In this document: positions 21,421 through 23,529 of the stretch, in pieces
How positions within the stretch are numbered: the first letter of the stretch is position 1
How the letters are laid out: each line of letters starts with the position of its first letter
Assembly: GCA_947632065.1 (NCBI GenBank)
Contig: CANRNO010000010.1
Coordinates: 1 to 31,300 of the forward strand
DNA: 31,300 bases
From: an uncultured Bacilli bacterium
GTDB taxonomy: Bacteria; Bacillota_I; Bacilli_A; RF39; UBA660
Direction of reading: 5' to 3'
The notes under the pieces: generated by a model
The model's input: the letters and a program-made list of their open reading frames with translations, nothing else
What the model was told of the DNA's origin: nothing
Database searches by the model: none
Program-made: the position numbers and the translations under genes

Positions 21421-21714
21421 TTACTTTATTAGTTTTTCCTCAAAATTTCTATATAAATTCCAAATAAAAGTTTTATTTTTTAATTCATAATATTTATTAT
21501 CATTATATTCTCTTTTACTTATTATTTCCATATTATCAAGTATTAGATAATTAATATGATTTTCTTGTAAAAAATCTATTAGTCTTCCTTTTCTTTTAAA
21601 AGGTCCGATAATATCTAATTCTTCGTCTGGTATATGATAGGAATTTTTTATTTTCATTATAATAATATAATCTTTATATAATCTTTTTGTAAATTTATAT
21701 CTTGTTTTTATCAT
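21421..21714 (-). CDS. Hypothetical 97-aa protein, translationally coupled to the RT gene
   Basis: Its ATG lies 20 nt inside the RT 3' end and is preceded by AAGGAG with 5-nt spacing. A 97-codon open frame is unlikely to arise by chance in DNA this AT-rich. No motif recognised. Confidence 0.6.
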
Positions 21715-22828
21715 CTTTTCTCCTTGATTCTTTTTGATAAAAGTATCTTTCTACTAATCTTTGCATCTTCCTTTTAGATCCATAATTAAATCCATATTGA
21801 TATGTTGAGATACTTGAAAAAGCACTTTGTAGAGATATTCTATTATGGTCATATAAATATCTTACTTCTTTGATTCTTCTTTTAACTCTTCTTCTGGTAT
21901 CACCAGCAACATTTATTATTGTTTTATTATTTATTATTCTGAATCTATATCCACAAAATGTAAATCCTTCTTTAATATTAGTAATATTTGTTTTCTTTTT
22001 ATTGACTTTTAATTTATATTTTTCTTCTAATATTTTTATTATTTCATCTCTTCTTTGTTTTAATTCATCTAAATCATCCCAAAGTATTAAGAAATCATCC
22101 ATATATCTTATAAAATATTTCATATGAAAGTCATGTACTATTTTATGATCTAATTCATTTAAGTAATATACTGCGAGAAATTGACTTGTCATATTTCCGA
22201 TTGGAAGTCCTTTATCTTTTTCATAGAGAGGAATTGCTTTTATTTCATCTAGTCTTTCATTTGATCTAGAAAGTTCTAGATTTTTTAAATTTTCTATTTG
22301 TTTATTTATATAAGGATAATTGGTACTGTTTATAACTACTTCTACCATTTTAAATTCATCTTCATCTAATTTATCTCTAATCATATCTTTTAATACTTTA
22401 TGGTCTATACTATAAAAGTATTTAGAAATATCTAATTTTAAAGCATAACAATTCTTTTTTCTTTTGAATTTTTCTAAATATTTTTTTAATAAGTCAATAG
22501 AATAATCTCTTCCCATATTTTTTCTAGTTGCGGCATTTCTCATATCTAAATATCTTTCTAGTTTAGGCATTAGTATATATCTTGCGACATAATGATTGAT
22601 AAGTTTATCTTTTATATTTAAAGACATTATAATTCTATATTTAGGATATTTTATAATAAATATATTATATTTCATAAAGTGATAGAGATTATTATTTATT
22701 ACATAACAAATTTTTGTGATATTTACTGATAAGTATCTTTCAAATCTATATATTTTTCTTTTATTTTTAGTGTTCTTTTTTATTTCATTATTAAATAAAT
22801 CTAGAATAGTTTCATAATTAACTTGCAT
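21695..22828 (-). CDS. Reverse transcriptase, diversity-generating retroelement (DGR) type
   Basis: 377 aa. RT motifs PKYRII, LDISKYFYSIDH, LPIGNMTSQFLAVYYLNELDH (22181-22201, the I/LGxxxSQ hallmark of DGR RTs) and YMDD (22094-22105). No maturase or endonuclease extension. Confidence 0.85.
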   Translation of the reverse strand: MQVNYETILDLFNNEIKKNTKNKRKIYRFERYLSVNITKICYVINNNLYHFMKYNIFIIKYPKYRIIMSLNIKDKLINHYVARYILMPKLERYLDMRNAATRKNMGRDYSIDLLKKYLEKFKRKKNCYALKLDISKYFYSIDHKVLKDMIRDKLDEDEFKMVEVVINSTNYPYINKQIENLKNLELSRSNERLDEIKAIPLYEKDKGLPIGNMTSQFLAVYYLNELDHKIVHDFHMKYFIRYMDDFLILWDDLDELKQRRDEIIKILEEKYKLKVNKKKTNITNIKEGFTFCGYRFRIINNKTIINVAGDTRRRVKRRIKEVRYLYDHNRISLQSAFSSISTYQYGFNYGSKRKMQRLVERYFYQKESRRKDDKNKI

Positions 22829-23159
22829 CGCTTTTTACCCAACCATAAATCATTTTTTGCATTTCTTCTAGTTGTCTACATCCTTTGTTAAGTTTTTTTT
22901 CACTTATGCATAATTTATGATAACTTTCTTCTAAATAAAAATCTATCATACTTATTTTTGAAAGCATTAATTTTTGATTATCTAGTTTTTCTTCTATTAA
23001 GTTAGTAATAAATATTAATTCTAATAAGTCATAACTTGTATTTATTATTCTATCTTTTAATATAAATTCTTTTCTGGGATAATTTATAATTATTTCGTTT
23101 ATAAAAACAATAAATTCTTTACATTTTGTGATTAGTTTAAATCTATCATTTTTATTCAT
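22818..23159 (-). CDS. avd: Avd-like accessory variability determinant (four-helix-bundle, 23S-rRNA-IVS protein family)
   Basis: 113 aa, predicted all-helical. FINEIIINYPRKEFILKDRIINTSYDLLELIFITN parallels the Bordetella phage bAvd ..YPIAQSIPRK.. segment. Overlaps the RT start by 11 nt. Confidence 0.7.
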   Translation of the reverse strand: MNKNDRFKLITKCKEFIVFINEIIINYPRKEFILKDRIINTSYDLLELIFITNLIEEKLDNQKLMLSKISMIDFYLEESYHKLCISEKKLNKGCRQLEEMQKMIYGWVKSDAS

Positions 23160-23529
23160 ATATTACCTCATTGATGTATTCCATTATTTTTTTTATTTTA
23201 TAACTTGGAAGACTTTTTATTTTTTCAATTAAATCTTCTTCTCTTTTTTTATCTTCACAAGATTTAATTCCTCTTTCTAGATACTTTTGATATTGATTAA
23301 CATTTTTATAATCTTTTTTTTCTACTTCTTCATCTTTTTCTATTATCACATAGCTTATCTTTTTATCCTCTAGAGTATTTTGGACTTTTCCTAAAACATT
23401 TATTGGAAATCCAACTCTTCCTTTACTTATTTTGTAATTTGCGATTGCATGAAGTACATAGGCATCTTTTTCGTATGCAGTATAGAATTTACCTTGTCTT
23501 CTAATCTTTACATGCTCTTTCATAAACAC
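23152..23529 (-). CDS. MutS domain I-like small protein (MSL-type DGR accessory)
   Basis: 125 aa. RRQGKFYTAYEKDAYVL....GRVGFPINVLGKVQNTLEDKKISYVIIEK aligns by eye with the MutS mismatch-binding domain (GDFYELF..DA...AGIP.....YL.KL...G..VAICEQ). Overlaps the avd start by 8 nt. Confidence 0.6.
   Translation of the reverse strand: MFMKEHVKIRRQGKFYTAYEKDAYVLHAIANYKISKGRVGFPINVLGKVQNTLEDKKISYVIIEKDEEVEKKDYKNVNQYQKYLERGIKSCEDKKREEDLIEKIKSLPSYKIKKIMEYINEVIYE

What the first reader, a model, noticed from the sequence alone, without database searches (positions are those of the whole stretch)
21421..23529. DGR-type reverse-transcriptase operon (MutS-domain-I-like, Avd-like, RT, unknown 97-aa protein) with no room for a template repeat in the usual place
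**Seen in the sequence**
- Four minus-strand ORFs overlap one another: 23152-23529, 22818-23159, 21695-22828 and 21421-21714.
- The RT carries YMDD and LPIGNMTSQ. The SQ replaces the SP found in retron and group II RTs and is the established DGR RT hallmark.
- The upstream 113-aa helical protein has the bAvd-like ..YPRK.. segment.

**Why it is odd**
- Canonical DGRs place a ~100-150-bp TR between avd and RT, or directly flanking them. They also have a matching VR at the 3' end of a nearby target gene, usually of C-type lectin fold.
- Here every junction is overlapped.
- The only non-coding DNA is 128 bp upstream (mostly one hairpin) and 34 bp downstream.
- I found no TR/VR-like repeat by eye.

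**Possible explanations (inference)**
- The TR is embedded in coding sequence.
- The target is remote.
- This is a DGR-derived module that no longer, or never did, perform mutagenic retrohoming.
Basis: partly seen in the sequence, partly recalled or inferred. Interest (0 to 1): 0.85.

Follow-up and report, generated by a model that had tools for sequence, protein, structure and literature searches.

The report
DGR cassette that lost its template
This is a real diversity-generating-retroelement gene cassette in an uncultured gut bacterium that lost both its RNA template and the variable end of its neighbouring target gene by deletion, yet its four protein genes have stayed under strong purifying selection in at least three related lineages, so the enzyme probably still works on something not present in this window.

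Summary
Four overlapping minus-strand ORFs (MutS-domain-I-like MSL, Avd, RT, a 97-aa protein) lie at the stated coordinates. No template repeat (TR) or variable repeat (VR) occurs anywhere in the 31.3-kb window.

The RT family is a genuine DGR family. It occurs in about 80 species-level gut Bacilli genomes. 77 of 79 carry a ~100-nt TR followed by a conserved structured RNA, and about 40 show clean adenine-only TR/VR pairs.

The nearest relatives have TR plus this RNA between the RT and the 97-aa gene. The window, a 95% relative and an 83% relative share one clean ~250-nt deletion of that unit. They also share loss of the VR-bearing DUF6273 domain of the upstream surface-protein gene.

After that loss all four genes kept dN/dS of 0.06-0.20, the same as complete DGRs and as neighbouring housekeeping genes. 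The cassette is therefore not decaying.

The likeliest use is action in trans on a TR/VR elsewhere in the genome, which I could not test. A template-independent new role is the more novel alternative.

The "unknown" 97-aa protein is a second, shortened MutS-domain-I-like paralogue, present in 74 of 80 loci.

Verdict: a new variant of a known kind, of moderate interest.

The parts
23152..23529 (-). MSL: small MutS-domain-I-like accessory protein (125 aa from GTG 23529; more likely 123 aa from ATG 23523)
   Evidence: ORF found; the public gene call is 123 aa. Pfam MutS_I E=1.4e-3 for this protein. 49 of 61 family members hit MutS_I, best 5.4e-7. The family profile's top PDB hit is the MSH6 mismatch-binding domain, aligned over the GKFYE region. 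Matches the MSL accessory gene of Wu et al. 2018.
22818..23159 (-). Avd-like accessory protein (113 aa)
   Evidence: Pfam bAvd 4.1e-7 and NCBIfam DivGenRetAVD 1.4e-11, both below the curated cut-offs. 50 of 51 family members hit DivGenRetAVD.
21695..22828 (-). DGR-clade reverse transcriptase (377 aa) with YMDD and LPIGNMTSQ. The last 11 residues are an extension created by the deletion and overlap the next gene.
   Evidence: It keeps 90 of the 94 positions that are >=90% conserved in 79 relatives. dN/dS is 0.07 against L005 and 0.14 against L089.
21421..21714 (-). O97 / 'MSL2': 97-aa shortened paralogue of MSL with a MutS-domain-I-like fold
   Evidence: jackhmmer seeded with O97 recruits the MSL proteins. 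hhalign of the O97 family against the MSL family gives 96.7% probability, E=4e-10. The AlphaFold2 model has pLDDT 91.9. Its top Foldseek PDB matches are MSH3 and E. coli MutS chains aligned over 75-88 columns, probability up to 0.98, though E-values are weak. A homologue is present in 74 of 80 loci.
21715..21735 (-). Deletion scar, with the junction between 21729 and 21728. This is where relatives carry ~250 nt of TR plus structured 3' RNA.
   Evidence: Alignment A2 and the sequence itself. The same gap occurs in L005 and L089. L010 has imperfect direct repeats, TATAAAAAAGAAGG and TATAAAAGAGGAG, on either side of the unit.
23658..25604 (-). Former DGR target: 648-aa membrane-anchored surface protein with Ig-like domains. 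It stops exactly where the L010 orthologue continues into a ~250-aa DUF6273 domain, the VR-bearing domain in relatives.
   Evidence: Pfam Bact_surface_Ig-like. The L010 orthologue is 998 aa and carries DUF6273. The N-terminal domain is shared with the live targets of L088 and L025. dN/dS is 0.23-0.61.
23586..23651 (-). Hairpin plus U-tract: intrinsic-terminator-like element ending the surface-protein gene. It fills most of the 128-nt spacer and is not TR-like.
   Evidence: MFE -27.7 kcal/mol, z = -3.6. The same hairpin is present in L089.
19374..21386 (-). Context only: NAD-dependent DNA ligase LigA, 34 nt downstream of the cassette with no terminator found in between. L012 has the same neighbour directly downstream. 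L031 also has ligA downstream, about 3.5 kb away and separated by an NTP-transferase gene.

Best explanation
**What it is (confidence about 0.9).**
- This is the protein-coding half of a chromosomal DGR of an uncultured, ~25% G+C gut Bacilli lineage.
- The ancestral layout was: target gene with a VR in a C-terminal DUF6273 domain, then MSL, Avd, RT, [TR + ~130-nt structured RNA], then MSL2 (O97).
- In the common ancestor of the window lineage, L005/L009 (95% RT identity) and L089 (83%), two deletions occurred.
- One removed the TR-RNA unit, probably by slippage between short direct repeats that flank it. It fused the RT reading frame onto the O97 start.
- The other removed the VR-bearing domain of the target.

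**How it works now (inferred, confidence about 0.5).**
- The four proteins are still made and still needed.
- The RT-Avd complex, with the two MutS-domain-I-like proteins, most likely reverse-transcribes a TR-containing RNA encoded elsewhere in the genome.
- It would then home the adenine-mutagenised cDNA into a remote VR. In other words, the cassette became a trans-acting enzyme module after its own template became redundant.
For: **DGR identity.**
- About 40 of 80 relatives show ~100-nt TR/VR pairs whose mismatches are almost all at TR adenines, for example 23/23, 22/22 and 21/21.
- 77 of 79 species-level loci carry the TR+RNA element.
- The RNA has 27 predicted pairs, 24 with compensatory changes.
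- The RT's best PDB hit is bRT and the Avd profile's best hits are Bordetella Avd.

**Deletion and its polarity.**
- The alignment shows a clean gap from the RT stop to the O97 ribosome-binding site in the window, L005 and L089.
- The RT tree is (L010,(L089,(window,L005))) with 100% bootstrap on each node. L010, L013, L011, L012, L017 and L088 all have the order RT-TR-O97.
- The surface-protein gene ends at the same point, with the same terminator, in the window, L005 and L089. The L010 orthologue continues into DUF6273.

**Retained function.**
- All divergence among the three TR-less lineages post-dates the deletion.
- dN/dS between the window and L005: MSL 0.06, Avd 0.17, RT 0.07, O97 0.11.
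- dN/dS between the window and L089 (dS 0.6-0.8): 0.20, 0.11, 0.14, 0.20.
- Neutrality is rejected, for example p=1e-24 for the RT.
- These values equal those of 13 TR-bearing pairs (RT 0.05-0.42, 12 of the 13 at or below 0.24, median about 0.12) and of neighbouring housekeeping genes.
- 90 of 94 highly conserved RT positions are kept.

**Plausibility of trans action in this family.**
- TR units lie on the opposite strand to the RT, or 2-4.5 kb away from it, in L052, L046, L087 and L028.
- Several loci carry 2-8 TR units.
- The sister lineage L010 keeps an intact TR, yet its adjacent VR region is A+T-rich and no longer matches that TR.
- DUF6273 genes with G+C-rich, VR-like 3' ends sit on long contigs with no RT cassette or TR within 10 kb, in L093 and L095.
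Against: - No TR, structured RNA or VR was found in 31.3 kb: 21 kb on one side of the cassette and 8 kb on the other.
- I could not scan the rest of the genome, so the remote template is assumed, not seen.
- In every relative with adequate flanks a TR lies within about 5 kb of the RT. A template more than 8-21 kb away would itself be unusual.
- Purifying selection shows the proteins matter. It does not show that they still diversify anything.
Confidence: 0.5

Rival explanations
1. Repurposed module. After losing template and target, the RT-Avd-MSL-MSL2 proteins took on a template-repeat-independent job. Examples would be cDNA synthesis from another RNA for defence, as in DRT/UG/Abi reverse transcriptases, or a role tied to the adjacent replication and repair genes ligA and pcrA.
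For: - Purifying selection has been as strong as in complete DGRs since the loss.
- Both nucleic-acid parts were removed cleanly while every protein gene was kept.
- The cassette sits 34 nt upstream of ligA with no detected terminator.
Against: - No new gene or domain was gained.
- No clade-specific change occurs at conserved RT positions beyond Y12F, K33L, I165V and I220V. By eye, L010's published translation shows the same ERYLS motif as the window, so K33L appears shared with the TR-bearing L010.
- The ligA neighbourhood is also found in the TR-bearing relatives L012 and L031.
- PADLOC and NCBIfam defence-RT models score far below their cut-offs.
- No precedent was found in the papers I read.
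Confidence: 0.2
2. Relic in decay. The DGR died when TR and VR were lost, and the protein genes simply have not yet accumulated disabling mutations.
For: - Loss of TR and VR is what inactivation would look like.
- The sister lineage L010 already has a fossilised adjacent VR.
Against: - Three lineages diverged after the loss, up to dS of about 0.75, and all keep four intact ORFs.
- dN/dS is 0.06-0.20.
- For the RT, 94 synonymous against 89 non-synonymous differences were seen where about 4.6 non-synonymous per synonymous are expected under neutrality (p=1e-24).
- There is no relaxation relative to complete DGRs.
Confidence: 0.05
3. A cryptic TR or VR is present in the window but hidden inside coding sequence, or too diverged to recognise.
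For: - The genome is A+T-rich, which weakens adenine-tolerant scans.
- L040 shows that the sequence profile can miss diverged units.
Against: - The model-free adenine-tolerant scan of all diagonals and strands found only an A-rich chance match and the unrelated 320-bp tandem repeat.
- No 100-nt window exceeds 45% G+C. Family TR and VR sequences reach 47-58% in genomes of 24-30% G+C.
- The covariance model with filters off found nothing.
Confidence: 0.03

Closest known systems
MSL-containing DGRs (Architecture D of Wu et al. 2018, NAR 46:11, PMC5758913; one MSL gene is in the Legionella DGR)
   Same: - It has a small MutS-like accessory gene together with avd and a DGR-clade RT.
- It is chromosomal.
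- Relatives of the window's cassette have TR/VR pairs with adenine-only differences.
   Different: - The window's copy has no TR, no structured 3' RNA and no VR.
- The family carries a second, shortened MutS-domain-I-like gene (O97). I did not find this described in the passages of that paper I read.
Bordetella phage BPP-1 DGR (avd-TR-spacer RNA-brt; bRT-Avd complex, PDB 8ub7; Avd/Bbp7, PDB 4dwl)
   Same: - It gives the best solved-structure matches for both RT and Avd.
- In the family, TR is followed by a conserved structured RNA. This parallels the Bordetella spacer region, which from established knowledge binds bRT-Avd and primes cDNA synthesis.
   Different: - The gene order differs: TR lies downstream of the RT or upstream of MSL, not between avd and RT.
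- The targets are DUF6273 surface or pilin-like proteins of a bacterium, not a phage tail fibre.
- The template RNA gene is absent here.
DGRs with remote targets (e.g. Trichodesmium, with many dispersed TR/VR-homologous loci; Paul & Eren 2022, PMC8867640)
   Same: One RT acts on sequences far from its own gene. Remote VR-like targets also occur in hosts of this family (L093, L095).
   Different: In those systems the TR still sits beside the RT. Here the template itself would have to be remote.
Defence-associated reverse transcriptases (DRT/UG/Abi)
   Same: They are stand-alone RT modules that work without TR/VR retrohoming. This would be the analogy if the cassette has been repurposed.
   Different: - The RT is not in those clades. 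Drt3a scores 51 bits against a cut-off of 200, and Drt2 scores 48 against 390.
- Its partners are Avd and MSL, not the effector domains of those systems.

Membership tests
Diversity-generating retroelement (DGR) | Reverse transcriptase of the DGR clade, with the [I/L]GxxxSQ motif and YxDD | tested here: met
   - LPIGNMTSQ and YMDD are present.
- The best PDB hit is bRT 8ub7_A at E=3.9e-20, ahead of the Cas6-RT-Cas1 fusion (3.7e-9), group II (1e-7), retron-type (3e-5) and Drt3a (2e-4) RTs.
- Homologues at 45-78% identity sit next to adenine-only TR/VR pairs.
- No formal all-RT phylogeny was built.
Diversity-generating retroelement (DGR) | Template repeat (TR) near the RT | tested here: not met
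   No TR occurs in 31.3 kb. A TR is present in 77 of 79 related species-level loci.
Diversity-generating retroelement (DGR) | Variable repeat in a target gene that differs from TR at adenines | tested here: not met
   - There is no adenine-biased repeat pair.
- There is no G+C-rich island.
- The neighbouring gene lacks the DUF6273 domain that carries the VR in relatives.
Diversity-generating retroelement (DGR) | Structured RNA adjoining TR that recruits RT-Avd (the spacer-region analogue) | tested here: not met
   Covariance model R1, filters off: best window hit 10 bits, E=2.9. Relatives score 40-93 bits.
Diversity-generating retroelement (DGR) | Avd accessory protein | tested here: met
   - DivGenRetAVD hit at 1.4e-11, below the curated cut-off.
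- 50 of 51 family members hit that model.
- The family profile hits Bordetella Avd structures.
Diversity-generating retroelement (DGR) | Ongoing adenine mutagenesis of a target | not testable with these tools
   This needs whole-genome and population read data.
MSL (MutS-like) DGR accessory proteins | Small protein homologous to MutS mismatch-binding domain I, encoded beside avd | tested here: met
   - The window protein hits MutS_I at E=1.4e-3, 19.2 bits against a cut-off of 20.6.
- 49 of 61 family members hit MutS_I.
- The family profile aligns to the MSH6 domain I GKFYE region.
- O97 joins the family by hhalign at 96.7% and by fold.
Group II intron RT/maturase, retron RT, DRT/UG defence RTs | Score above the family's curated threshold, with family-specific partners | tested here: not met
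   - Scores against cut-offs: TIGR04416 86/300, Drt3a 51/200, Drt2 48/390.
- There is no intron RNA, msr/msd or effector gene.
- No Rfam family matches.

The most novel reading that the evidence does not exclude
There may be no template repeat anywhere in these genomes. In that case a DGR protein set (RT, Avd and two MutS-domain-I-like proteins) has been kept for a long time for a job other than mutagenic retrohoming. It would be a domesticated, template-free descendant of a DGR, possibly acting in defence or in DNA/RNA transactions next to ligA.
Probability: 0.18. Interest if true: 0.85.

Novelty: new variant of a known kind. Interest (0 to 1): 0.55.

Why it matters
DGR surveys define elements by an RT lying next to an adenine-biased repeat. 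Roux et al. 2021, for example, searched within 1 kb. RT cassettes without a nearby template are therefore discarded by design.

Here the evolutionary history is unusually clear:
- a sister lineage still has the template;
- one deletion removed the template, and the variable domain was also lost;
- three descendant lineages kept all four protein genes under the same constraint as complete DGRs.

Two outcomes are possible, and one whole-genome scan plus read mapping would decide between them.
- DGR enzyme modules can be maintained far from their templates. DGR counts and target lists from contig-level surveys would then be systematically incomplete.
- A DGR has been converted to another use.

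The family analysis also gave three further results:
- a second MutS-domain-I-like accessory protein;
- a covarying structured RNA 3' of TR that is not in Rfam;
- loci with arrays of up to eight TR-like units.

Tried and rejected
- **Adenine-tolerant self-scan.** The only hits were the 320-bp tandem repeat at 16.2-17.2 kb and one A-rich 50-mer with 24 of 32 adenines mismatched. I judged both chance or irrelevant.
- **Rfam.** Nothing at gathering threshold on the window, L010, L012 and L013. Nothing at E<=1 on 16150-17260. No tRNA or tmRNA genes.
- **Hunt for a remote target of the same species.** I queried the protein collection with L010's DUF6273 domain. It returned 44 hits, all at 38% identity or less. 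The four looked up come from other samples. This showed that remote VR-like targets exist in the family. It said nothing about the window's own genome.
- **L040.** It looked like a second TR-less cassette, but its contig ends 0.9 kb after O97 and it still has a G+C-rich VR-like target end. I treated it as contig-limited.
- **Single-sequence PDB searches.** The searches with Avd and MSL were empty or noise. Only the family profiles worked. The O97 profile found nothing by sequence.
- **PDB code 8UB7 in the paper library.** No hit. I inferred its identity from the partner chain named Avd.
- **Origin contig.** The window's own NCBI contig (31,467 nt, seen as the longest contig of P0190) was not returned by the look-up.
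Full report
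**1. The observation**

- The four minus-strand ORFs are at the stated coordinates and overlap one another by 8, 11 and 20 nt.
- Public gene calls on identical contigs start the first ORF at ATG 23523, giving 123 aa.
- The RT has YMDD and LPIGNMTSQ.
- Profile searches gave:
  - RVT_1 at 4.6e-18 for the RT;
  - bAvd at 4.1e-7 and DivGenRetAVD at 1.4e-11 for the 113-aa protein;
  - MutS_I at 1.4e-3 for the 125-aa protein;
  - nothing for the 97-aa protein.
- The Avd and MutS_I hits are below the curated cut-offs for this one sequence.
- The 128-nt upstream spacer is a hairpin plus U-tract that looks like the terminator of the upstream gene.
- ligA starts 34 nt after the last ORF.

**2. No TR or VR in the window**

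- An adenine-tolerant scan of every diagonal in all four strand combinations found nothing credible. The generic repeat search found nothing either.
- Profiles built from relatives' TR units found nothing. The best window hit to the 57-sequence profile was E=7.4 with a negative score.
- A covariance model of the structured RNA that follows TR in relatives, run without filters, gave at best 10 bits (E=2.9). Relatives score 40-93 bits.
- The genome is about 25% G+C. Family TRs and VRs are 47-58% G+C, yet no 100-nt window here exceeds 45%, and those that approach it lie in ordinary genes.

**3. What the family is**

- The RT has more than 2,600 homologues at E<=1e-10.
- A scan of one genome per species returned 192 relatives. 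The best 80 are almost all uncultured gut Bacilli. They are variously labelled Bacilli, Tenericutes, Mycoplasma sp. CAG, Clostridium sp. CAG or Firmicutes CAG, and come from rabbit, human, goat and chicken.
- MSL-Avd-RT is conserved in essentially all of them.
- About 40 loci show ~100-nt repeat pairs whose mismatches fall almost only at adenines of one copy, for example 23/23, 22/22 and 21/21.
- With an iterated profile, 77 of 79 species-level loci carry a TR-like unit. The two exceptions are cut off by contig ends.
- Directly 3' of TR lies a ~130-nt element with 27 predicted base pairs, 24 of which show compensatory changes. It matches no Rfam family.
- From established knowledge of the Bordetella system, where a spacer RNA next to TR binds bRT-Avd and primes cDNA synthesis, this element is its likely counterpart. 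That is an inference.
- The RT's best solved-structure match is chain A of 8ub7 (E=3.9e-20). Chain B of that entry is named Avd, and the family Avd profile hits it and 4dwl (Bbp7).
- This is a bona fide DGR family of the MSL-containing kind described by Wu et al. 2018.

**4. Why there is "no room"**

- The closest TR-bearing relatives have the TR-plus-RNA unit exactly between the RT stop codon and the 97-aa gene. These are L010 (78% RT identity), L011, L012, L013, L017 and L088.
- Aligned to them, the window and L005/L009 (95%) show one clean gap of about 250 nt. It runs from the RT stop to just before the ribosome-binding site of the 97-aa gene.
- The junction lies between window positions 21729 and 21728.
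- Losing the stop codon extended the RT by 11 residues into the next gene, which explains the 20-nt overlap.
- L089 (83%) lacks the same segment, and there the RT stop overlaps the next start as ATGA.
- In L010 the unit is flanked by imperfect direct repeats, TATAAAAAAGAAGG and TATAAAAGAGGAG. This suggests slippage or illegitimate recombination as the cause (inference).
- A bootstrapped RT tree gives (L010,(L089,(window,L005))) with 100% support at each node, nested among RT-TR-O97 lineages. The template was therefore lost once, in the stem of this three-lineage clade.

**5. The target went too**

- The upstream 648-aa gene encodes a membrane-anchored protein with Ig-like domains.
- Its N-terminal domain is shared with live DGR targets in L088 and L025.
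- Its L010 orthologue is 998 aa and continues into a DUF6273 domain. That domain carries the VR in relatives.
- In the window, L005 and L089 the gene stops exactly at the start of that domain and is followed by the same terminator hairpin.
- In L010 the domain is still there, but its VR-equivalent stretch is A+T-rich and has no nucleotide match to L010's own intact TR.
- The adjacent target therefore seems to have been uncoupled before the split, and was then deleted in the window's clade.

**6. The cassette is not decaying**

All differences among the window, L005 and L089 arose after the deletion.

| Comparison | dS | MSL | Avd | RT | O97 |
|---|---|---|---|---|---|
| Window vs L005 | 0.19-0.35 | 0.06 | 0.17 | 0.07 | 0.11 |
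| Window vs L089 | 0.6-0.8 | 0.20 | 0.11 | 0.14 | 0.20 |

- Values in the gene columns are dN/dS.
- Neutrality is rejected at p = 4e-7 (MSL), 4e-9 (Avd), 1e-24 (RT) and 2e-5 (O97).
- Neighbouring housekeeping genes give 0.04-0.10.
- Thirteen TR-bearing pairs give RT values of 0.05-0.42, with 12 of the 13 at or below 0.24. Constraint has not relaxed.
- Of the 94 RT positions that are >=90% conserved in 79 relatives, 90 are unchanged in the clade.

**7. The 97-aa protein**

- An iterative search seeded with it recruits the MSL proteins.
- Profile-profile comparison of the two families gives 96.7% probability, E=4e-10.
- An AlphaFold2 model from 47 sequences has pLDDT 91.9.
- Its top structural matches are MSH3 and E. 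coli MutS chains aligned over 75-88 columns. Probability is up to 0.98 and TM is about 0.5 on the query, although E-values are weak.
- The MSL family itself hits Pfam MutS_I in 49 of 61 members and aligns to the MSH6 GKFYE region.
- The cassette therefore encodes two MutS-domain-I-like proteins. A homologue of the short one is present in 74 of 80 loci, usually right after the RT.

**8. How it most likely works now**

*Shown:*
- The proteins are under selection.
- No template or target is within 21 kb on one side and 8 kb on the other.

*Inferred:*
- The proteins act in trans on a TR RNA and VR elsewhere in the genome.

*Support from the family:*
- TR units can lie on the opposite strand or 2-4.5 kb from the RT.
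- Loci can hold 2-8 TR-like units.
- L010 keeps a TR without a matching neighbour VR.
- DUF6273 genes with G+C-rich VR-like ends occur on long contigs with no RT or TR within 10 kb.

*Against:*
- In every relative with adequate flanks a TR is within about 5 kb of the RT.
- I could not scan the rest of the genome.

I give trans action about 0.5, a template-independent new role about 0.2, decay about 0.05 and a hidden TR in the window about 0.03. The remaining ~0.2 is left unassigned, for explanations I have not thought of.

**9. Comparison and novelty**

- By descent this is a member of the MSL-type DGR family. As it stands it fails three defining features: TR, VR and the adjoining RNA.
- I therefore file it as a DGR-derived cassette, not a complete DGR.
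- Surveys that require a repeat next to the RT would have skipped it. I found no description of conserved template-less DGR cassettes in the papers read. That is a limited search, not proof of absence.
- Verdict: a new variant of a known kind. Interest is moderate, because the ordinary explanation (a remote template) remains the most likely and is easy to test.

Noticed in passing
window 16235-17203: Three tandem ~320-bp units, 82-94% alike. Each has a promoter-like TTGAAA..TGATAATAT and a terminator-like hairpin on the + strand. Each also has a small hydrophobic ORF on the - strand, for example 16387-16500, whose product ends ...MSKKDLLVVLLIVVIILLIIYN. This looks like a tandem array of type I toxin-antitoxin-like loci or small RNA genes. 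There is no Rfam match.
   Followed up: partly
L018 11100-13168 and L019 2247-4117: Between the RT and the O97 gene these two loci carry about eight TR-like units in a row. Some have the structured 3' RNA and some do not. At least one (L018 11103-11216) pairs with a VR by adenine-only differences. L015, L028 and L054 also have 3-4 TR units.
   Followed up: partly
L010 5235-5385 and 33 other loci (alignment A3): A conserved ~130-nt structured RNA lies immediately 3' of TR. It has 27 predicted pairs, 24 with compensatory changes, and a nearly invariant ATACGT loop. It is absent from Rfam and is probably the family's counterpart of the Bordetella DGR spacer RNA.
   Followed up: partly
L010 234-3230 and 5121-5379: The sister lineage keeps an intact, AAC-rich TR. 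The VR-equivalent end of its adjacent DUF6273 target is A+T-rich and no longer matches that TR. It is either a fossilised VR or evidence that the live target lies elsewhere.
   Followed up: partly
L093 10791-10960; L095 6291-6430: DUF6273 genes with G+C-rich, VR-like 3' ends (58% G+C in a 24% genome) lie among housekeeping genes. No RT cassette or TR+RNA unit occurs within 10 kb on a 658-kb contig (L093), or within 5.5 kb upstream and 10 kb downstream on a 49-kb contig (L095). These are remote DGR targets in hosts of this family.
   Followed up: partly
L091 2734-4230, L092 888-2390, L088 7289-7681, hits P0121-P0161: Many target proteins, or their neighbours, carry the prepilin N-terminal methylation motif (PF07963) together with DUF6273. 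The diversified proteins may therefore be pilin-like surface fibres. L091 also has a phage-type integrase next to the DGR.
   Followed up: no
window 23658-25604: The former target gene evolves fast. Its dN/dS is 0.23 against L005 and 0.5-0.6 against L089, far above its neighbours.
   Followed up: partly
window 21387-21420: Only 34 nt and no detected terminator separate the cassette from the essential ligA gene, so the cassette may be co-transcribed with it. L012 has the same arrangement.
   Followed up: no
L040 8791-8960: A target gene has a G+C-rich VR-like end, but no TR is detectable on the 12.3-kb locus. The contig ends 0.9 kb after O97. A second cassette from the same MAG (L044) has its own TR, which does not match this VR.
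   Followed up: partly
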